Origin: Eledone cirrhosa
Lineage: Eukaryota
Length of the DNA: 64,000 nucleotides
Assembly: GCA_964016885.1 (NCBI GenBank)
Contig: OZ024761.1
Location: 12,090,001 to 12,154,000, forward strand
Direction of reading: 5' to 3'
Shown here: positions 3,245-63,791 of the stretch, one piece after another
How the letters are laid out: the number at the start of each line of letters is the position of its first letter
How positions within the stretch are numbered: the first letter of the stretch is position 1
Notes under the pieces: model-generated
Database searches by the model: none
The model's input: only the letters and a program-made list of their open reading frames with translations
Told to the model about the DNA's origin: nothing
Program-made: the position numbers and the translations under genes

Positions 3245-5710
3245 TCATCATCATCATCATCACCGTTTTACGTCCGTTCTTCCACGCTAGCATGGGTTAG
3301 ACGGGTTGTCCTGTTGTGGGCAGTGTCTGGTCGGCTGACCATGCCTTGCTCATACAGGAACTGATCTGGCTTGATTTCTACAGCTGGATGCCCTTCCTAA
3401 CACCAACCTCATTTACAGTGAGTGCTGGGTGCTTTTTCGTGGCGCCTACACGTCCACTTTACAGTGTGGGCTGGGTGCTTTTTTGCCGTGGCACCTCCAC
3501 GACCACCTTGCGGTGGGGGGGGGGGGCATATTGTTTATATGCTTCAGCATGTACCCATGGGAGGTCGGGTACCCTGTATTACTGCGTGACGCCAGAAGTC
3601 ACGGTCGTGTGTCATTGACTTTGAGAGGTGTAGTTGGGTAAGGTCGGCTTTTATCACCTCATCCCAAGTCATCTTGGGTCTCCCCACTCCGCGGTTTCCA
3701 TCAACTTCTAGTGCTCTGCACCTTTTTATGCAGCTGTCATCCTTCATACGCATCACATGTCCATACCAGCGTAACCGCCTCTCCTGCACGCAGCATTTGA
3801 TTCCTCTTATGCTCAGTCTCTCTCTCAATTCATTTATGCTTTGTCGTTCACGTATATTACTGTTACACATCCATCGGAGCATGCAGGCTTCGTTTCTCTC
3901 TAATCTACGTAAGTCTTCCACCTTCAGCGCCCAGGTCTCACTACCATGCAACATCGCTGTTCGGATACACGCATCATACAGTCTGCCTTTCATTCTGAGG
4001 GAGAAGCCTTTTGCAGCTAGCAGTGGTAGTAGTTCCCTAAACTTCTTCCATCCCGTTCTTACCCTAGTTATTGTACTTTCTGAGCACCCACCTCCGTTGC
4101 TAATTCGGTCACCTAGGTAGCAGAAGCTGTCTACTGTTTCTACAGGGCCCTCCCAGAGATTGGTGGTACTTGTTTCCTGTGGCTGTTTGCTTGCTGTTTC
4201 AGCACAGCTGCTGCATGTGAATCCTACATTCTTAATTAAGCTTCCTGAGATCCCGCTACATCTCTTGTGTACCCATTGTTTGCATTTGGGGCAAAGAATG
4301 GAGTTCCTACCTACACCTTTCCTACATACTGAGCAAGGCCATTTCCCTGAGGGGATCTGGGTTCTGTTTTCTCGTCTACTTATAAGGACCTTAGTCTTTG
4401 TCATGTTGACTTTGAGGCCCTTTCTCTCTAGTCCCTGCTTCCAGGTTTGGAATTTATTCTCTAGTTCTACCATAGATTCAGCTATGAGTGCGAGGTCATC
4501 AGCATACAGGAGTTCCCATGGGCATCCGGTCTTAAACTCCTCCGTTATTGCCTGCAGGACTATGATGAACAGGAGAGGGCTAAGAACAGAGCCCTGGTGG
4601 ACCCCAACCTGTACGCTAAATTCCTCGCTATACTCATTGCCAATCCTAACTTTGCTGACTGCTCCCCTATACATGGCTTGTACCGCTTTCACAAGCCATT
4701 CATCTACTCCTAGTTTTCTAAGAGCCCACCAGATTACTGCACGTGGAACTCTGTCAAAGGCTTTCTCAAGGTCGACAAATGCCAAGTAGAGTGGCTTACT
4801 TTTAGCTAGGTACTTTTCCTGTAATTGCCTCACAAGGAAGAGCGCATCAGTGGTGCCTTTCCCTGGAACAAACCCAAATTGCATCTCGTCTATATTCACC
4901 CGGTCCCTAATCAGCTGTGCTATAACTCTTTCTGTTACTTTCATGACCTGGTCCATCAACTTTATACCTCTATAGTTTCCTCTATCTAGTGCATCGCCTT
5001 TACCTTTGTAGCAGTTGACAATGATGCTACTGCACCAATCTTTTGGTATGGCCCCCTCTAGTATTACCTGGTTAACGATACGTGTGGTTATAGTGTGACC
5101 TACAGACCCAGATGCCTTCAGCATCTCGGCAGCTATACCCGATGGACCGGTTGCCTTCCCTATCTTCATATCTCTGATTGCCTTACTTACTACGCTGCCG
5201 CTGACTTGTACTGCTGGTCCCTCTATAGGGTCTACGTGGGGTAGGGTCTCTTCTTCCCATGCATTCTCCTCATTTAGTAATCTATCATAATGACTCTTCC
5301 ATGCATCTTTCTTCTCAGCACTTGTGAGGGCAAGCTCACCTTTATCATTCCGGATACACTTCTCTCCAATGACATCACAACTATCTCTGACACACTGCCT
5401 CGCAATCTTGAATACCTCCTGTTTCTGGTCCTCACGTTGTAAAACATGCTTGAATTTTCTATCCTCTGCTTCCCTCCTAGCTAAGTATACTTGTCGCCTA
5501 GCTTCCCTCTTGGTCTCTATGTAATGTACCCTGCTCCCCCCGTTCTTCCATTCTTTCCATGCCTGTCTCTTGGCCTTGACTGCTTCATCTACCTTATTGT
5601 TCCACCACCAAGTCACTCTCCTCCTGCTTGAGGTCTTACTCCAGCCACAAACCTCATCCGTCGCCTCTAGTAAGTTATTTTTTAGGAACTCCCAGTTCTC
5701 TTCTACGTTA
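3245..5710 (-). mobile_element. 5'-truncated RTE-clade LINE; open RT ORF 3544-5616
   Basis: NYRGIKL, QFGF, FVDLEKAFDRV, GVHQGSVLSPLLF, YADD, Cys-rich CSVC/CPKC insert, RRLRWYGHV; (CAT)n tail. Confidence 0.95.
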
Positions 5711-5864
5711 AATGTCTCTATCTGTTCTTCTTATATATATATATATGTATGTATATATGTATGTATATATATATGTATATATATATGTATATATATATAT
5801 ATGTATATACACATGAATATATGTATATATATATGTACATATATATATACATATATATATACGA

Positions 5865-14922: not shown

Positions 14923-15346
14923 AGCAGCTTCTTGTATGCTTTTGAGAACAGTACTGAACCTGTTGCTCAGTTGATGTATACAAGTTCCAACCATGGATTG
15001 CCAGGATCTGTTTGTACATCCGAGGGTGGATATATTGTCTATACTACGACAGCAGCACCAGGAATGGTGGGCTCTGTTACAGGCTCGTCAGGGCTGTTGC
15101 CACAGCCTCACCTACAGGAAGTAAACACGGACCACATTGACAATCACTTGGTGCATTCAAGGGCAACTTTATTAAATGGACGTATGGCTCAAAACGAATT
15201 TGATAATCCAATGGACTTGTCGAATGGTAAAGTGGTCCAGGTTATCGATATGAAAAAGGAAGACACTCGGCAGTATGACCACAATCAACCAGCACCAAAT
15301 TATCGCCATAATGGTGTTACAGTTGGTATACCAGAATCTCAACATG
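14923..15346 (+). CDS. Su(H): Coding exon, N-terminal region of Su(H)/RBPJ (CSL); contains CtBP-binding motif PMDLS (15208-15222)
   Basis: Polypyrimidine acceptor ctttcatctttttcAG, open frame SSFLYAFENS...NPMDLSNGK...PESQH, donor G|GTAAGT (phase 1) matching the phase-1 acceptor at 40987. Gene identity is inferred from PxDLS plus GSLTPPDK motifs known in protostome Su(H). Confidence 0.8.
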
Positions 15347-24236: not shown

Positions 24237-24745
24237 CCTTTTCTTAGAGAGAAGACAGAAAAATCGAAATCTTAGGAAATCTTTGAGAAAGAAAGGTTGT
24301 TGGAAAAAGAAAGAAAGAGCAGTAACAAACACTATCAGTAGTAGTAGTGGTGGTGGTAGTAGTAGCAGCAGCAGCAGCAGCAGGAGCAGCAGCAGTAGTA
24401 GTAGTGGTGGTAGTAGTAGCAGCAGCAGCAGCAGGAGCAGCAGTAGTAGTAGTGGTGGTAGTAGTAGTAATAGTAGTAGTAGTGGTAGTAGAGGTGGTGG
24501 TAGTAGTAGTGGTGTTAGTAGCAGCAGCAGTAGTACTAGTGGTAGTAGTAGTAGTAGCAACAGCAGCAATAGTAGTAGTAGTGGTAGTGGTAGTAGTAGT
24601 AGTGGTAGTAGTGGTAGTGGTAGTAGTGGTAGTAGTAGTAGTGGTAGTAGTAGTAGTAGTAGTATATTAACATTAACTACTCTGCAAAAAGCTAAAAAAG
24701 AGTCAACAACAACAACAACAGCAACAACAACAGCAGCAATGATGG
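22957..24745. repeat. Compound (GTT/GGT)n, CT-rich minisatellite and (AGT/AGC)n arrays
   Basis: Direct observation. Confidence 0.9.
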
Positions 24746-25105
24746 TGGAGCAGAGTTTAGGTTGTGTGTTTGAAGATTTTACACATTACATGATTGAAGG
24801 TAACCCACTCTTCCTTGTAGTAACTCCTTCCTCTTCATTGACATATGTGGCTATATATATATATACATACATACACACACATCTATCTATATATATATAC
24901 ACATCTATCTATCTATCTATATATATATATATATATATATATAAGTATATACACACAGACATCTATATATATATATATATACACACACAGACATCTATAT
25001 ATATATATATATACACATCTATCTATATATATATATATTTATATACACACACACACATCTATCTATATCTATATATATATATATACATACACACACATCT
25101 ATCTA

Positions 25106-32333: not shown

Positions 32334-33995
32334 CATCATCATCATCACCGTTTTACGCCATTTTTCCACACTAGCATGGGTTAGACGGGTTGTCCTGTTG
32401 TGGGCAGTGCCAGGTAGGCTGACCTTGTCTTGCTCATACGGAAACTGATTTTGGCTTGATTTCTACAGCTGTATGCCCTTCCTAAGACCAACCTCATTTA
32501 CAGTGAGTGCTGGGTGCTTTTTTTCCATGGTGCCTACACGTCCACTCTACAGTGTGGGCTGGGTGCTTTTTTGTCATGACACTCCAAGGACCACTTTGCA
32601 GTGGGAGGGGGTGGGAGCATATTGTCTATATGCTTCAGCTTCGGCTTGTACCCGTGGGAGGTCGGGTCTTCTGTATTATTGCGTAACGCCAGAGGTCTCA
32701 GTCCTGTGTCATTGCCTTTGAGAGGTGTAATTGGGTAAGGTCGGCTTTTATCACCTCATCCCAGGTCTTCTTGGGTCTCCCCACTCCAAGGCTTCCATCG
32801 ACTTTTAGTACTCTGCACCTTTTTATGCAGCTGTCATCCTTCATACGCATCACATGTCCATACCAACGCAACTGCCTCTCCTGCACACACCATTTGATTC
32901 CTCTTATGCTCAGTCTCTCTCTCAATTCATTTATGCTTTGCCGTTCACGTATATTACTATTACACATCCATCGGAGCATGCAGGCTTTATTTATTTCTAA
33001 TCTATGCAAGTCTTCCACAGACAGCGCCCAGGTCTCACTACCATGTAACATTGCTGTTCGGATACACGCATCATACAGTCTGCCTTTCATTTTGAGGAAA
33101 AAGCCTTTTGCAGCTAGCAGTGGCAGTAGCTCCCTGAACTTCTTCCATCCTGTTCTTACCCTAGTTATTGTACTTTCCGAACACCCACCTCCGCTGCTAA
33201 TTCGGTCACCCAGGTAGCAGAAGCTGTCTACTGTTTCTACAGAGCCCTCCCAGAGTTTGGTGGTACTTGCTTCCTGTGGCTGTTTGCTGCTTACTGTCCC
33301 GGTGCAGCTTACATTCTTAGCTAAGCTTCCTTAGATCCCATTACACCTCTTGTGTACCCATTGTTTGCATTTGGGGCAGAGGATGGAATTCCTACCTACA
33401 CCTTTCCTACATACTGAGCAAAGCCATTTCCCTGAGGGGATATTGGTTCTGTTTTCTCATCTACTTATGAGGACCTTAGTCTTTGTCAGGTTGACTTTGA
33501 AACCCTGTCTTTCTAGTCCATGCTTCCATGTTGGGAATTTCTTCTCTAGTTCCGCCATAGATTCAGCTATAAGTGTAAGATAATCCGCATACAGAAGTTA
33601 CATGGGCATCTGGTCTTAAACTCCTGTTATAGCCTGCAATATGATAATAAACAGGAGAGGGCTAAGAACAGAGCCCTGGTGGACACTGACCTGTATGCTA
33701 AATTCCTCGCTGTAGTCATTGTTAACCCTAACTTTCCTGACTGCTCCCCACAGGGGACTCTGTCGAAGGCTTTTTCCAGATCGACAAATTCCAAGTAGAG
33801 TGGCTTACTTTTAGCTAGGTACTTTTCCTGCAACTGCCTCATAAGGAAGAGAGCATCAGTGGTGCTTTTTCCTGGCACAAACCCAAACTGCATCTTATCT
33901 AGTTTTACCCGGTCCCTAATCAGCTGTGCTATAACTCTCTGTTACTTTCATAACCTGGTCCATAAGCTTTATACCTCTATAGTTTCCTCTATCTA
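32334..33995 (-). mobile_element. Decayed RTE LINE (same family as 3245-5710)
   Basis: Frameshifted RT: QFGFVPGK, DLEKAFDRV, RWYGHV; (CAT)n tail. Confidence 0.9.
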
Positions 33996-34230
33996 CATAA
34001 TTCTGCAAATAGCATCTGATAAAATCACCTTGTCTTGTATCATAATCAGAAGATAGAACTGCGCCATCGAAATATGTGATTTTGTGACCTGCTGCTGTTG
34101 TTTTAATGTATGTACCATCATCATCATCGTTTAACGTCCATCTTCCACGCTAGCATGGGTTGGACGGTTGGGGCGGGGGATCCATTTTTTATTGGAGGGG
34201 GGGGGGGGGGGCGTTTTTATATAACCATAT

Positions 34231-34274
<44 letters not shown>

Positions 34275-34294
34275 AACTAATTTAGAGAAAGGGT

Positions 34295-35515
34295 CAATTA
34301 GATGAGAAACAGTTTGGTTTTGTGCCTGGGAAAAGTACAACAGCTGCCTTCTTCTTAGTGAGATAACTACAACAGAGGTTCTTAGAGAAGAATAAGCCAC
34401 TATACTTAGCTTTTGTTGACCTAGAGAAGGCCTTCGATAGAGTACCCTGATCTGTCATCTGGTGGTCCCTAAGGAAACTAGGTGTAGAGGAATGGCTTGT
34501 GAGGACAGTGCAAGCTATGTACAGGGGTGCTGTCAGTAAAGTGAGAGTAGGAATGGAGTTTAGTGAGGAATTCCAGATACAAGTAGGTGTACATCAGGGT
34601 TTGGTCCCCAGCCTGCTCTTGTTCATTATAGTCTGCCAAGCCATAACAGAGGAGTTTAAGACTGGCTGTCCATGGGAACTTCTCTAGGCTGACGATCTGG
34701 TACTTATAGCAGAATCAGTTGAGGAGCTAGAGAATAAATTCTGGCTATGGAAACAGCAGTTGGAATCAAGAGGACTGAGAGTGAACCTAGCTAAGACTAA
34801 GGTGTTGATAAGTGGGAAAGGGGATAAAACACTGATTCCATCATGGAAATGGCCATGTTTGATATGTAGGAAAGGAATTGGTATAAATTCTATAAATTGT
34901 ACACAATGCAGATCCTGGGTACACCATAGATGTAGTGGGATAACAGGCAAACTAACAGGTAGGGAAAACTACATATGCAGTAGATGTACAGGGAAAGTTG
35001 ACAGTAGAAGTCGCAGTGATAGACACATTTTTCAAATGCAGGTGGGTTCTATAGAAGTAGTTGATAGCTTCCGGTACCTAGGTGATCAGATTAAGGGAGG
35101 AGGGTGCTCTGAGGCCATAGTATCTAGAATAAGGACGGGTTAGAAGAAGTTTAGGGAGCTGTATCCTCTGTTGACAAAGAAGGGTTTCTCCCTACGAACG
35201 GAAGGCCGGTTATATGATGCCTGCGTGAGATGCGCGCTGCTGCATGGTAGTGAGACATGCGCAGCAACTGCAGAGGATATGCGATGGCTGGAGAGAAATG
35301 AAGCAAGCATGCTCCGATGAATGTGCAATGTCAATGTGCGTGAACGACCAAACATAGATGAGTTGAGAGAGAAGTGTATAAGAGGGATAAACTGTAGTGT
35401 GCAGGGGAGAAGACTGCGATGGTATGGACATGTGATGCGCATGGAGGATGACCACTGGGTAAAGAAGTGACAAGAAATCCCAGTAGAAGGAAGACCACAA
35501 AAAACCTGGGCGGAC
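34295..35515 (+). mobile_element. Decayed RTE LINE, related subfamily, opposite orientation
   Basis: LAFVDLEKAFDRV, KTGCPWELL*ADD, RWYGHVMRM. Confidence 0.9.
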
Positions 35516-40986: not shown

Positions 40987-41209
40987 ATGCATCAGAACAT
41001 TTAATGTTAGCTGGGTCTTTAACACCACCCGACAAAATAAGTGGCGACTCAATTCCTATGGCAACCATCCGTCCACTTGGCACCAGTACATTGACCAATA
41101 CTATCAAAACCCCACCAAGTCCAATGCCTACTCCATCTCCACCAATAAACAGGATTACAGGTGATATTGATCATTCTGAGTCAAGGATTACACACCCATT
41201 TTCACGCAG
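40987..41209 (+). CDS. Su(H): Coding exon of Su(H)/RBPJ with Groucho-binding motif GSLTPPDKI (41013-41039)
   Basis: Acceptor ttttatttattacAG; phase-1 join gives ...SQH-D-ASEHLMLAGSLTPPDKISGD...PPSPMPTPSPP...HPFSR; donor CAG|GTAAGA (phase 2). Confidence 0.85.
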
Positions 41210-47969: not shown

Positions 47970-50900
47970 ACTGGAAAAAAACATTCGAGCTATCACCCAG
48001 CACCACCCTCCACTATCACCCCACTGCACAAACTCCCATTGCTGCCATTAACAAACAAACAAATTAACAACACACCAAAACAATTAAAACCATCCACTCT
48101 CGCCTCTACATTTTTGCTTAACGCCCAAGGCATCAGCCCTTCCACCAATACTCAAAAATGGAAGATCAAATTCCTGGAGGACTGGATTGATGTCCATCCA
48201 AACCACATCCCTTTCTTCGTCCTCACTGAAACCCATCTCAGTAACCTCCACTTGGAAGCCGAGGTGAAAGTGAAAAATTTCAAAGCCATCCGTGCTGATC
48301 GCGCTGGCAGAAGAAAGGGCGGAACTGCCATTTATGTCCATAATTCTTTCTCAACAGAGGCTATGAACATATTCACTAATGGATACTGTGAGGCAGTCAC
48401 TGTATTCAGTCAAACCAACAACCTATTAGTAGTTGGGCTCTATAGGCCACCCCAAACGCCTGTACCATGCTTCAAGGAATGCCTCAACAGCATAAAGTGT
48501 TTCATCCAAGAGTGTCACCCTGACAACATCTTAATGATGGGGGACTTCAACCTCCCCGGAGTTGACTGGTCCACAAACACCCTGCCACCAGGTTCTTCTG
48601 CCTCAACCTCTGACAGGGAAGCTGTGGAATCGCTTCTTGACTTCATGGATGATTTCTTCCTATCCCAACTAGTGCTCGAACCAACGAGGTGCCACAAAAA
48701 CGTCCTAGACTTAATTTTCAGCAATCACACTGACAATATCCACAATATTGCAGTGGAGAAAACTCTACTCTCTGATCATGACATGGTTCTCTGTGATCTG
48801 AGATTCCACCGTCCAATATACAAACCCAATGTCATTTCTCCTGTCCATCCGTTTGACGCTATGGATTTCCACAATGCAAACTGGGAAGCGATCAGTCATG
48901 ATCTTGCACATGTCGACTGGTCCTTCACGCACACTCATACACCCACTAACATCAAAAAGTCCTGGCAGACATTTGTGGACACTGTTACAAACATATGTGC
49001 TAAACACACCCCATTAAGAACTATAAACAAATCTAAGAGCAGAATCCCTAGAAATAGAAAAACACTCATCAGAAAAATTAAGAGAACGAACAAAAAAATC
49101 AACAAGCTGAAATACTGTCAGCAGCAACACATCAACTTGACTGCCATTTCATCACTAGAGATTAAAAAACATAACCTCCAAAACAACATAATGTCCCTCA
49201 TCAACAATCAGAGAAGAGCTGAAGAGGCCTGGGCCATTGAGAAGATCAAACTCAATCCCAAAGTGTTCTTTTCATTTGCAAAAAAACACAAAATCACTGG
49301 CTCTACTGTTGGCCCTCTAATTGATGAAAATGGCACTCTTCAAGACAATGCTAAAACCATGGGTGAGATACTGCAGAAACAATACTGCTCTGTTTTCAGC
49401 AATCCTGATATGGCCGATCTGGGCTGTATCGGCGATGTTACTCCCCATTACACCTTATCGGACATAACGTTTGGCGCCCCTGATGTCTTGGCGGCAATAA
49501 AGGAAATCAAGCATAATTCAGCAGTAGGTCCCGATAGGTTCCCTGCTTGTGTCTTGAAGGCGTGTCAACACCAACTTGCTTCTCCTCTTGCCAATCTGTG
49601 GCGGAACTCACTGGATGCTGGATATGTGCCAGAAAACCTTCTATCCCAGTCTGTTGTCCCAGTTTTCAAAAAGGGAAACAAATCCCTTGCCGTGAATTAC
49701 CGTCCAATCTCACTCACCTCTCATATCATTAAGGTATTTGAGCGAGTGGTGAGATCGCGAATGACCCACTTCCTTGAGAGTAACAATATGCTGAACTCCA
49801 ACCAGCATGGATTCCGTAATGGAAGGGATTGCCTGACGCAACTACTGCATCACTTTGATGACATTTTGAGAGCCTTGGGAGAGGGTTCCAACACTGATGT
49901 TATCTACCTTGATTTCAGCAAGGCCTTTGACAGGGTTGATCATAACATTCTACTGAGAAAGCTGTCCAATATTGGTGTCACTGGAAAGCTGCTGCAGTGG
50001 ATCAAGAGCTTCCTGTCAAACAGAACCCAACATGTTGTAGTTGAGGGAGTCAAATCAAGCCCAGCCAAAGTCAGTAGTGGAGTCCCACAAGGCACTGTGT
50101 TGGGCCCACTTCTCTTCATCATCTATATTAATGACATCACTGACATCATCAAACACAGCAACATTAAAATTTTCGCTGATGATTCCAAGCTCCAAAAGGT
50201 CATCAATGGCGTGGATGACCGGATAAGCCTTCAGTCAGACCTACTGGCTGTTACCCAATGGGCAGAAAAGAACAACATGCTACTGAACGAAGACAAATTC
50301 GAACTGATCCACTTTGGAAAAGAGGATGCTCTGAAACTCCCGTACTCCCTTCCCTCCGGGGAAACTCTCGTGGCATCTAACAACATCAGAGACTTGGGAG
50401 TAACCGTGGACAGCAACATAAGCTGGACCACGCATATAAGCAGCAAAGTTGACATGGCCCGCAGAATGTGTTCCTGGATCCTCAGAACCTTCCAGTCGAG
50501 AGATTCCCGCACCATTATCCTTCTCTTCTCTACTTTCGCCCGACCACACCTTGAATACTGTTGTCCACTGTGGTCTCCCCACACGAAACAAAGTATCATG
50601 AAACTTGAAGCTCCTCAAAGGGCAATCACGAAAAAGATAGATGGCATGTCAGACCTTGACTACTGGGGTCGATTGGAAAACCTGAAACTTTACTCACTCC
50701 AACGTCGCCGTGAGCGTTATATTATCTGCATGATGTGGAAAATGTTCCATCATCACTGCCCAAATGATGTTGGCATCGCCTTCAAGATACACCCAAGGCT
50801 TGGGCCCCGTGCTATCCGTCCCATTCAAAAATCTAAATCGCAACTCATAACAACAATACGGCACAATTATTTCACCTCAATCGGCCCTGCTCTCTTCAAC

Positions 50901-51146
50901 ATCACACCAGGACACGTCAAAACAGAAACTGACCACACAAAATTCAAGAAGTCTTTGGACAAATTCCTCCAAGTAATCCCGGACAAACCACCCACACCCG
51001 GATATGTCTCCGCAAACAGTAATTCTCTTCTCGAATGGGCCATGGTGCCCAAATCCTGAATTGAAAGACTTCGCCAGGTGGTGCTATTAAGTTAGACATG
51101 GCCTGGGCCAATACTGGCCAAAACATTTCAAAGTTATTCAAAGTTA
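47970..51146 (+). mobile_element. CR1/Jockey-group LINE with uninterrupted APE+RT ORF (~47970-51059), 5'-truncated, in (TA)n
   Basis: LNAQG, LTETH, YRPP, GDFN, LDL, SDH; [40 protein letters not shown]; 3' (ttcaaagtta)2. Confidence 0.95.
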
Positions 51147-57360: not shown

Positions 57361-58026
57361 TATATATATATACACAAATACATATACATACATATATATA
57401 TATATATACACGCACATATTCACGCATATATATATACACACACACATATATATATATACACATATACACGTATAAATATATACATACATATATATATATA
57501 CACATACACACATACATATATATATATACACATATACACGTATAAATATATACATACATATATATATATACACATACACAAACACATATATATACATACA
57601 CATATACACGTATAAATATATATATACATACACATATACACATATATATACATATATATCAAGGGAGTAAGAAAGGTTAAAAAAAAAAACAAGCATAACA
57701 TTGAGAAAAAGAAAATCTACATACATACATATATGTATATATAATACATACACATATACACGTATAAATATATATATATACATACATATATGTATATATA
57801 ATACATACACATATACACGTATAAATATATATATATACATACATATATGTATATATAATACATACACATATACACGTATAAATATATATATATATACATA
57901 CATATATGTATATATAATACATACACATATACACGTATAAATATATATATATACATACATATATGTATATATAATACATACACATATACACACCTGTATT
58001 TATTGTATACTCCATCGGAAGGAAAG

Positions 58027-58412
58027 ATGACTTGTACTTACCCCTCAGATTTCTCGGGAAGGATTGGCTCTTCCTACCCGGAGTCGAACCTAACCACACT
58101 ACACCCACATCACCCTCAGCCCCACCACGCGCAAAGCCCTATCCCCACTGGTACTGTTTTATCCCAAGTACCACCGCCGCCACCACCACCACCACCACCG
58201 CTGCCACCAGCACAACTGCCACCACCACCACCACCAATGCAAGCCTGTGGGCCGCCTGCAATGTCAACACCACCTAGCTATACCACCATGGGGCCTTACC
58301 AATCCTACCTTGGAGATCTATACTGTTCACCTGACCTGGGGTACTATGACTCCTACTACCATAAAGATGCTGAGCTCAGCAGTTGTCGATATGGATTTTC
58401 TAATTTTCCAAG
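58027..58412 (+). CDS. Probable alternative exon of the same gene (Pro/Tyr-rich); alternative first exon (ATG 58027) or cassette exon (acceptor 58047-58048)
   Basis: Unique open frame MTCTYPSDFSGRIG...polyP...RYGFSNFP ending at donor CCAAG|GTATTT in phase 2, the same phase as exon 40987-41209. Confidence 0.55.
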
Positions 58413-58475: not shown

Positions 58476-58772
58476 TTAACCCCTTCCATATGTTTCTTAA
58501 CCCCTTCCATATGTTTCTTAACCCTTTCGTTATGTTTCTTAACCCCTTCCATGTTTCTTAACCCTTTCCATATGTTTCTTAACCCCTTCCATATGTTTCT
58601 TAACCCTTTCCATGTTTCTTAACCCCTTCCATATGTTTCTTAACCCCTTCCATATGTTTCATAACCCTTTCCATGTTTCTTAACCCCTTCCATATGTTTC
58701 TTAACCCCTTCCATATGTTTCATAACCCTTTCCATGTTTCTTAACCCCTTCCATATGTTTCTTAACCCTTTC
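58476..58772. repeat. 19-21-bp minisatellite TTAACCCCTTCCATATGTTTC
   Basis: About 14 units. Confidence 0.9.
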
Positions 58773-61982: not shown

Positions 61983-62870
61983 GGTGCGGACGATATTTGT
62001 TCGCAAGATTACTGTCTAGGAAAAGATACCACAGTAGTTTTACTTTTTAAGATATATTTATCAAACTTGGGTCAGTTTGTCTTCATGACTTGTTCTTTCG
62101 ATCTCACTCAATAAACCCGCCATTGGCTTTGATGACAGCCTCAAGGCGGCCTTGGAACCGGCTACAGGCCTTCGTCACTGTCCCCCGACTTAGGCCCCTA
62201 AAGGCACTTGTGGTCCTGGCCTTCAGATCGTCTTTCGTATTGCAGCTAGATCTGTTGGTGTCTCGTTCCACTGCGCCCCACACAAAGAAGTTGAGGGGGT
62301 TGCAGTCAGGCGAGCTGAGAGGCCAGATGTCAGGTGAAGTGTGGTCGACGAAGTTTTCTGACAGCCAGGCTTGGGTCTTTCGGCTGGTATGGCAGGGCGC
62401 TGAGTCTTGCTGCCACACGTACGGCCTACCTGCAGCTACCTGGTCGATCCAGGGCTTTACTACCTCGCTCAGAATGCGGATGTAGCCATCAGTGTTCAGC
62501 TTGAGGCCCTCAGGGAAGAAGTGAGGTGGCATGATGTCACCTTGACTGCTGACGACACCTAAGACCAATGTTGTCGCTGGAAACTGTGTCTGCATGACTC
62601 TGGGCACGTCTTTGGATGAGACAGCGAGCCACCTGTTATTCTGGGAGTTGATCTTCTGGTCTTTATTTGTCCTCCAGGTGCGGATTCCAAGAAGAACTCC
62701 GTGTCTCTTCCACAAATTTGGAGGTTCAAACTTATTCATAATCAATTATTCTGAAAATAAATAATGGAAATATAGTCACTGTTTTTATGAAGACAAGAGT
62801 GACAATGGAAGTAAAAAAAACTTTGCATAAAATTAGCAGTTGAAAATTGCGAACAAATATCGTCCACACC

Positions 62871-62920: not shown

Positions 62921-63618
62921 AAGGTATATATTGAGTTAGAAACTCAAAATAGTCTCTTACAATTAAATAGCTCAAGGAAAGAGATTTTTCCAGGCTGTGT
63001 AATATAATTGAATATAAAAGAGAGATAAACACAGATATATACATATATGTTCAAATTGTAAGGGACCAGATTCGCTAGGGTGAAAAAAATACTAACTATG
63101 AACAATAGGGTTTGCCAGATAAAATAATAAATCAAGAAAAGAAATACAGTTGCCCGAATTTGGGGCAACTACCAGACAGCCAGACAGCTTTTGGCAATAC
63201 TGTTTCGCAATTCTAGTGAAGGGAATTATCAATTCTTTTACTCATCAGTGGTTGTAAAATTAGTAAACCCTTCACTTCTAAGTATCTCAGAAGACTGAAT
63301 AGTGTACGCATATAAAATGACGCACCTGGCATCAGAACCTAGCTTGTCTCATAAACGTACGCTACTAAAAGTAGCAGCCAAGTTTACTCGTCATTTAAAT
63401 TAGTTCTACAAATTCAAGAAGCCAAATATATCAAAGGTATATATTGAGTTATGATTTGAACACATATATGTGTTTATCTGCGCTTATCTCTCTTTTATAT
63501 TCAATTATATATATATATATATATATTTCAAACCCACTCACTGTTTCAAAAATATTCTTACTTGACATTACAGTCGCTAAGTTTATAGCTTCTAATTTGA
63601 ATGGAAAAAGACGGGTGA

Positions 63619-63686
63619 TGTGTTGGTGTAAATGGTAGCACAGTGGTCCGGATAACCAAAGATGTGGGTTCGACTCCCATGTACGT
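63619..63686 (+). other. tRNA-like Pol III head (SINE or pseudo-tRNA)
   Basis: A-box tggtgtaaatgg, B-box ggttcgactcc; cloverleaf imperfect. Confidence 0.5.
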
Positions 63687-63791
63687 CAATACACATCTTT
63701 TTCCATTTCTCCGAGGGTTCTTAACCCCACTATCAGGCTAAATAATTTCTTTAATTTCTTTAGTCAAAATACGGCGATAGCTAACATTTAT

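What the first reader, a model, noticed from the sequence alone, without database searches (positions are those of the whole stretch)
58027..58412. Alternative exon that could yield a Su(H) isoform lacking co-repressor motifs
It ends in phase 2 like the Groucho exon, and its visible acceptor (cccctcAG, 58048) is phase 1, so it cannot follow the Groucho exon in frame. It is either mutually exclusive with that exon (both lengths are 1 mod 3: 223 and 364) or an alternative first exon. Either way a Pro-rich segment would replace the Groucho motif, and possibly the CtBP motif, giving a potential repressor/activator isoform switch in Notch signalling.
Basis: inference. Interest (0 to 1): 0.7.

Follow-up and report, generated by a model that had tools for sequence, protein, structure and literature searches.

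The report
Octopus Su(H) isoform lacking repressor motifs
This is a real exon of the octopus Notch-pathway gene Su(H), conserved in cuttlefish, that is likely used as an alternative first exon and gives a protein without the two motifs that recruit co-repressors, so cephalopods would likely be able to set how strongly Notch target genes are silenced by choosing a promoter.

Summary
The exon is real. Five deposited full-length proteins from two octopuses, a cuttlefish and an unnamed assembly join it straight to the CSL core at the 58412 donor. Four of the five start at the Met of 58027; none has the CtBP or Groucho exon in front. So it is most likely an alternative first coding exon. It drops both motifs, and the 58048 AG is probably a chance site inside coding sequence. 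New here: a second likely first exon (24739-24799) joins the Groucho exon, as in O. bimaculoides X6. The gene thus encodes three N-termini: CtBP+Gro, Gro only, neither. The isoforms exist as automatic database models, but my literature searches found no description of them. 'Activator' overstates it: the motif-free form likely loses built-in repression but should still need Notch. No RNA junction from this species was seen, and the longer RefSeq isoforms were not seen. Interest 0.45.

The parts
58027..58412 (+). Exon C: likely alternative first coding exon of Su(H); ATG 58027, 128 codons, Pro/Tyr-rich, phase-2 donor AAG|GTATTT; no CtBP or Gro motif
58047..58048 (+).
58020..58021 (+). Second phase-1 AG just upstream of the ATG; weak (AAG, purine-rich). 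A splice from the CtBP exon to here would be in frame and keep the conserved N-terminal residues
58170..58236 (+). (ACC)n-type repeat encoding the polyproline tract; the window protein is 18 residues longer than the Octopus homolog here
58270..58281 (+). PPxY (PPSY) motif, present at the aligned place in all 6 aligned sequences; possible WW-domain ligand (motif meaning recalled), weak by shuffle test
14923..15346 (+). Exon A (CtBP exon), phase 0 to phase 1; PMDLS starts at 15208
   Evidence: same motif context as the O. bimaculoides row of PMC6777938 Table 1
24739..24799 (+). Exon D: likely second alternative first coding exon (20 codons, phase-1 donor AAG|GTAACC) that joins the Groucho exon in frame; gives a Gro-only N-terminus
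   Evidence: 13 of 20 residues identical to the start of O. bimaculoides X6; alignment score 67 against 27-36 for 20 shuffled queries over six frames of the window
40987..41209 (+). Exon B (Groucho exon), 223 nt, phase 1 to phase 2; GSLTPPDK starts at 41013
   Evidence: (68 of 73 residues identical to O. bimaculoides X6)

Best explanation
Window 58027-58412 is a conserved coding exon of a cephalopod Su(H)/RBPJ gene that is likely used as an alternative first exon from its own internal promoter, is joined directly to the CSL core in related species' records, and gives a protein with neither the CtBP nor the Groucho motif, which would likely bind the same DNA sites without built-in default repression. 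Shown: the exon, its phases, its conservation, the exon-to-core junction in homologous records and the absence of both motifs. Inferred: (1) transcription starts upstream of 58027 (no start site seen); (2) with exon D at 24739-24799 the gene has three entry points, giving CtBP+Gro, Gro-only and motif-free N-termini on one DNA-binding core; (3) promoter choice therefore sets which co-repressor Su(H) recruits in a cell. The motif-free form would be permissive (neutral when Notch is off, activating with NICD/Mastermind) and would compete with the repressing forms for sites, rather than being a constitutive activator.
For: Five full-length proteins carry exon C joined to the CSL core: P0001 O. sinensis X5; P0002 and P0003 O. 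bimaculoides X4 and X5; P0006 Acanthosepion pharaonis RBPSUH; P0009 Logan (core domains confirmed by Pfam in the 2 of these scanned, P0001 and P0009). Four of 5 start at the Met of 58027, P0006 at an internal Met; 0 of 5 carry PxDxS or GSLTPPDK. P0009 (561 aa, 1683 nt of codons) lies on one 2238-nt contig. It crosses exactly the 58412 donor, so that contig is inferred to be a spliced transcript, independent of genome-based gene models. The first 8 residues, 7 of them upstream of the supposed acceptor, are 6-7 of 8 identical in 8 of 8 homologs that cover them; intron sequence would not be expected to keep that between octopods and decapodiforms. Exon D matches the N-terminus of O. bimaculoides X6, which runs on into the Groucho exon. 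PMC6777938 (sections 6, 7) shows by pulldown with centipede Su(H) motifs that PxDxS binds CtBP and GSLTPPDKV binds Gro, and lists the O. bimaculoides motifs. Hairless is confined to Pancrustacea (same paper, abstract), and SHARP's CSL-binding domain was found only in vertebrates (PMC6337844 section 12). So of these three known routes to repression, only the N-terminal motifs are present in an octopus.
Against: No spliced read or start site from this species was seen. The RefSeq entries are predicted models (XP_ accessions), and 5' ends of such models can be incomplete (recalled). The longer RefSeq isoforms (O. bimaculoides X1-X3, O. sinensis X1-X4) were not seen; clusters merge isoforms (X6 sits in the exon-C cluster), so a CtBP-exon-to-exon-C form could be hidden in another cluster. 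A phase-1 AG at 58021 would allow such a form while keeping the conserved first residues. Only about 35 nt of non-repeat sequence lie between the (AT)n tract and the ATG. Motif binding was shown for centipede sequences with Drosophila co-repressors, not octopus. Other repressors may bind the core (Limpet/Prickle-type candidates, PMC6337844 passages), so motif-free need not mean repression-free. The CSL core is not in the window, so the gene's identity rests on N-terminal homology.
Confidence: 0.75

Rival explanations
1. Exon C is (also) an internal exon, mutually exclusive with the Groucho exon, spliced from the CtBP exon through the AG at 58048 or 58021; the isoform keeps CtBP binding and swaps only the Groucho motif.
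For: Both joins are in frame without stops; 58048 has 13 of 18 pyrimidines; the two exons have matching phases and cannot be joined in frame.
Against: 0 of 5 full-length exon-C proteins have exon A in front; residues upstream of 58048 are conserved as protein; acceptor-like sites this good occur 2.1 per kb in the intron; two AGs lie within 40 nt upstream.
Confidence: 0.15
2. The exon is a real alternative first exon, but its role is only to give expression from another promoter (tissue or stage). The N-terminal differences do not change repression much, because repression runs through proteins that bind the core or is not used in those cells.
For: Alternative first exons with short, dispensable N-termini are common, also in vertebrate RBPJ (recalled). 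PMC6777938 Table 1 lists several species with a CtBP motif and no Gro motif, so the motifs can be lost.
Against: The exon's last 58 residues are strongly conserved (79% to cuttlefish-type, 49% to a distant homolog P0013), which suggests a function of the peptide itself; both motifs are kept in the long form across protostomes.
Confidence: 0.25
3. The exon-C isoform is a true Notch-independent activator: its Pro/Tyr-rich N-terminus is an activation domain or recruits a WW-domain co-activator (Yorkie/YAP) through PPxY.
For: 25% Pro and 9% Tyr; PPxY at the aligned place in 6 of 6 aligned sequences including the distant P0013; C. elegans LAG-1 is reported to have a Notch-independent role (PMC8289040, search listing only).
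Against: A PPxY arises in 49% of shuffles of the whole exon and 11% of its conserved half; no Pfam family; no usable Atlas hit; no functional data.
Confidence: 0.12
4. Chance open frame in a proline-codon microsatellite, not an exon.
For: It contains an (ACC)n repeat and lies among many repeats.
Against: Homologs in octopods and cuttlefish, spliced at the same donor to the CSL core; conservation is highest outside the repeat and ends at the donor.
Confidence: 0.01

Closest known systems
Octopus Su(H) RefSeq isoforms XP_029650907.1 (O. sinensis X5), XP_014779922.1/923.1/924.1 (O. bimaculoides X4, X5, X6) and Acanthosepion pharaonis CAE1275260.1
   Same: Same exon C N-terminus joined to the CSL core (X4, X5, cuttlefish); same exon D + Groucho exon N-terminus (X6).
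   Different: The window species is neither (89% identity over the exon, longer polyproline tract). These are automatic models with no statement on co-repressor content.
Protostome Su(H) with direct CtBP (PxDxS) and Groucho (GSLTPPDKV) motifs (Miller et al. 2019, PMC6777938)
   Same: Exons A and B of the window carry these motifs in the same context as the paper's O. bimaculoides row.
   Different: The paper shows one long form per species in the entries I saw; 'isoform' occurs 0 times in its main text and exon C/D peptides were not found in its 7 supplements held as text (long letter runs are cut there). It argues that CtBP and Gro could not bind Su(H) at once (section 14); a Gro-only isoform bears directly on that.
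Transcription factors whose alternative promoters add or remove an N-terminal repression domain, e.g. Drosophila Ovo-A/Ovo-B (recalled), and the two Hairless isoforms made by internal ribosome entry (PMC5054391, search listing only)
   Same: One DNA-binding or adaptor core with N-termini that differ in regulatory content.
   Different: Here the switch is on the CSL factor itself and has three states; activity of the short form is untested.

Membership tests
CSL / Su(H) / RBPJ gene | LAG1-DNAbind + BTD + TIG_SUH core in the product | tested here: met
   Met in homologous full-length proteins P0001, P0004, P0009. The core exons themselves are outside the window, so for this locus it rests on exon homology (68 of 73 for exon B).
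Direct co-repressor-recruiting protostome Su(H) | CtBP motif P[ILMV]D[ILMV]S in the N-terminus | tested here: met
   PMDLS at 15208 in exon A. Absent from exon C and from all exon-C and exon-D isoforms seen.
Direct co-repressor-recruiting protostome Su(H) | Groucho motif GSLTPPDKV-like downstream of the CtBP motif | tested here: met
   GSLTPPDK at 41013 in exon B; present in X6, absent from exon-C isoforms.
Direct co-repressor-recruiting protostome Su(H) | Physical binding of octopus Su(H) to CtBP and Gro | not tested
   Published for centipede motifs only; no complex prediction was run.
Alternative first (promoter-proximal) coding exon | Own in-frame start codon, with conserved coding sequence from the ATG on | tested here: met
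   ATG 58027; 6-7 of the first 8 residues identical in 8 of 8 homologs; 4 of 5 full-length records start there.
Alternative first (promoter-proximal) coding exon | Donor joined to the common downstream exon | tested here: met
   Junction present in 5 of 5 full-length homologous proteins; not seen for the window's own species.
Alternative first (promoter-proximal) coding exon | Own transcription start site, no upstream coding exon | not testable with these tools
   Needs CAGE, 5' RACE or long reads; only contigs were on offer.
Mutually exclusive exon pair (with the Groucho exon) | Same entry and exit phase, cannot be joined in frame | tested here: met
Mutually exclusive exon pair (with the Groucho exon) | Both exons are spliced to the same upstream exon | tested here: inconclusive
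   0 of 5 exon-C records have exon A upstream, but the longer RefSeq isoforms were not seen.
Mutually exclusive exon pair (with the Groucho exon) | Tandem-duplicate homology or close spacing that blocks joint inclusion (typical features, recalled) | tested here: not met
   The exons are 16,817 nt apart. No likeness is evident on reading the two translations; no formal alignment of B with C was run.

The most novel reading that the evidence does not exclude
Coleoid cephalopods, and perhaps other molluscs, tune Notch default repression without a Hairless or SHARP adaptor by a three-promoter ladder on Su(H) itself: CtBP+Gro, Gro only, and none. The last form swaps the co-repressor motifs for a conserved Tyr-rich module with a PPxY WW-domain ligand that links it to Yorkie/YAP or a Nedd4-family ligase, making a permissive or Notch-independent activating CSL.
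Probability: 0.15. Interest if true: 0.75.

Novelty: new variant of a known kind. Interest (0 to 1): 0.45.

Why it matters
In animals without Hairless or SHARP, Su(H) is thought to repress Notch targets through motifs in its own N-terminus, which would make repression a fixed property of the protein. Conserved alternative first exons that remove CtBP binding, or both CtBP and Groucho binding, would make it a regulated, cell-type choice. They also offer a natural series for asking what default repression contributes in cephalopod development, and they bear on the published argument that Su(H) cannot hold CtBP and Gro at once. The isoform sequences are already in databases; the reading of them as a co-repressor ladder was not found in print.

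Tried and rejected
No whole genome is held for this window, so the core exons and the long form's first exon could not be located. The motif scan found none of the microexon or core peptides in the window and no convincing first exon upstream of exon A (best ungapped score 24). Sequencing runs: no RNA holder listed (5 runs, 2 studies). I laid 4 of the 5: 3 gave nothing, 1 gave one unspliced contig over 58245-58470, with no joints or loose ends. This says nothing on expression. Metagenome scan with the exon profile: 250 pattern matches, 0 confirmed. ESM Atlas: only sub-0.9 look-alikes of low-complexity proteins for the exon, nothing for P0013; rejected. Pfam: 0 families for exons A, B, C and P0013. 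Of 6 hits in the 1.84-billion library I kept 2 (P0010, P0013). P0011, P0012, P0014 and P0015 match only short stretches of query residues 24-71 (the His/Pro-rich part) and lack the core motif; I read only P0014 and P0015. The sigma-70 promoter scan does not apply to a eukaryote and was below shuffles (9 vs 14.4); ignored. Su(H) consensus sites: 4 in 64 kb, none within 2 kb of exon C; no evidence of autoregulation. PPxY as a firm claim: rejected (shuffle 11-57%). Earlier scan notes: nothing by place, sequence or words. No structure or complex prediction was run (likely disordered peptide, no partner claimed).

Full report
Locus. The window is repeat-rich animal DNA holding the 5' part of a Su(H)/RBPJ gene on the + strand. 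Exon A (14923-15346, phase 0 to 1) encodes PMDLS at 15208, and exon B (40987-41209, phase 1 to 2) encodes GSLTPPDK at 41013. These match the Octopus bimaculoides row of Table 1 in Miller et al. 2019 (PMC6777938; I read the outline, keyword passages, sections 6, 7 and 14, and supplement passages), where such motifs are shown by pulldown to bind CtBP and Groucho. Exon B is 68 of 73 identical to O. bimaculoides. The species is an octopod other than O. bimaculoides or O. sinensis (inferred from 89% identity over exon C). The CSL core exons lie beyond the window, and no genome is held.

Observation check. The acceptor on its own carries no weight: 35 sites as pyrimidine-rich occur in the 16.7 kb intron, and unlike the acceptors of A and B it has two AGs within 40 nt upstream.

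The exon is real. The translated exon found 1 protein among 137 candidates: O. sinensis Su(H) isoform X5, E 4.7e-41. Its cluster (5 of 5 read) adds O. bimaculoides X4, X5, X6 and a Logan fragment. A search with the N-terminal 125 residues found 2 of 78 candidates and added Acanthosepion pharaonis RBPSUH, whose cluster (4 of 4 read) holds three Logan proteins. A profile search gave 4 of 144 candidates, all already seen. The 1.84-billion library gave 6 hits, 2 of them true homologs. One of these, P0013 from an unnamed 2949-nt contig, is distant (49% over the last 58 residues) yet ends with the same SSCRY..SNFP followed by Arg-Tyr, i.e. the same donor read through. It suggests the exon is older than the octopod-decapodiform split, but its organism and its link to Su(H) are not shown. 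Identity is 98 of 110 to the Octopus homolog and 86 of 108 to the cuttlefish type and ends at the donor.

First exon or mutually exclusive exon. Five full-length proteins join exon C to the core at the 58412 donor (P0001, P0002, P0003, P0006, P0009). Four start at the Met of 58027, the cuttlefish gene model at an internal Met, and none has exon A or B in front. The seven codons upstream of the proposed acceptor are conserved as protein (6-7 of the first 8 residues in 8 of 8 homologs). P0009 fits 561 codons on a 2238-nt contig, so that contig is inferred to be a spliced transcript. I conclude that exon C is most likely a first coding exon and that both co-repressor motifs are lost. Against this: the RefSeq entries are predictions; the longer isoforms were not seen and could include an A-to-C form; and a weak phase-1 AG at 58021 would allow an in-frame A-to-C join that keeps the conserved residues. 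No junction from this species was seen.

A third N-terminus. O. bimaculoides X6 starts with 20 residues unlike exon A and runs into the Groucho exon. The window encodes their homolog at 24739-24799: 13 of 20 identical, score 67 against 27-36 for 20 shuffled queries, with a phase-1 donor AAG|GTAACC that joins exon B without stops. Its upstream sequence is A/C-rich with no polypyrimidine tract. So the gene has three entry points: upstream exon + A + B (CtBP and Gro), D + B (Gro only) and C (neither). Exon D rests on one deposited model plus this window. An optional 13-residue segment between the N-termini and the core varies independently (X4 versus X5).

Mechanism. Shown: exon structure, phases, conservation, motif content. 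Inferred: separate promoters upstream of 24739 and 58027, and cell-type choice among them. Hairless is confined to Pancrustacea (PMC6777938 abstract) and the CSL-binding domain of SHARP to vertebrates (PMC6337844; keyword passages and section 12), so the N-terminal motifs are the known route to default repression in a mollusc. The exon-C form would bind the same sites, fail to recruit CtBP or Gro directly, and still need NICD and Mastermind to activate (general pathway: PMC10970066 passages). That is permissive, not activating, and would lower the Notch threshold where it is expressed. The exon's own peptide is conserved beyond what a spacer needs. It is Pro/Tyr-rich with no Pfam family and has a PPxY at the aligned place in 6 of 6 sequences, but shuffles give PPxY in 11-57% of cases, so a WW-domain partner is only a lead.

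Literature. Eight answered searches bear on whether this is in print (one search was on lag-1). None listed a paper on cephalopod or mollusc Su(H) isoforms. 'Isoform' occurs 0 times in the main text of PMC6777938, PMC10970066 and PMC8166818 (keyword passages only for the last two). The library lacks most subscription journals, and long sequence runs in the Miller supplement are cut, so a description elsewhere is possible. The Ovo-A/Ovo-B and vertebrate RBPJ first-exon parallels are recalled, not looked up. Earlier scan notes had nothing.

Verdict. Observation confirmed; interpretation partly supported. A new variant of a known kind: the isoform sequences are deposited as automatic models, alternative promoters that remove repression domains are a familiar device, and the three-step co-repressor series on Su(H) was not found described. 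Interest 0.45; function untested.

Noticed in passing
window 24739-24799 (+): Likely further alternative first coding exon of Su(H) that joins the Groucho exon (Gro-only isoform), matching O. bimaculoides X6; preceded by an (AGT)n tract and an A-rich leader.
   Followed up: yes
P0013 (unnamed Logan contig, 2949 nt): Distant homolog of exon C (49% over 58 residues) with the same donor read-through; could push the exon's origin outside coleoids. Organism unknown.
   Followed up: partly
homologs P0001-P0004, P0006, P0009 (exon outside the window): Optional 13-residue segment just before the CSL core is present in O. sinensis X5 and O. bimaculoides X4, X6 and absent in O. bimaculoides X5 and the cuttlefish-type proteins.
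   Followed up: no
window 58476-58772: Tandem array of a 21-nt pyrimidine-rich unit (14.5 copies) starting about 64 nt downstream of the exon C donor.
   Followed up: no
window 3544-5730 (-): LINE reverse transcriptase frame of 728 codons with a PHD finger after the RT domain; related, broken pieces appear at 900-1496 and about 32700-35150 by reading the translations.
   Followed up: partly
window about 48060-51059 (+): Open LINE ORF2 of about 1000 codons with endonuclease and RT domains inside the intron between the Groucho exon and exon C; looks intact.
   Followed up: partly
window 62104-62745 (-): 213-codon frame that reads like a Tc1/mariner transposase fragment (recalled likeness; no Pfam hit at 1e-3).
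   Followed up: partly
window 63616-63689 (+): ARAGORN calls a tRNA-Ser(GGA); the anticodon is unusual for a eukaryote (recalled), so likely a tRNA-derived SINE or pseudogene.
   Followed up: no
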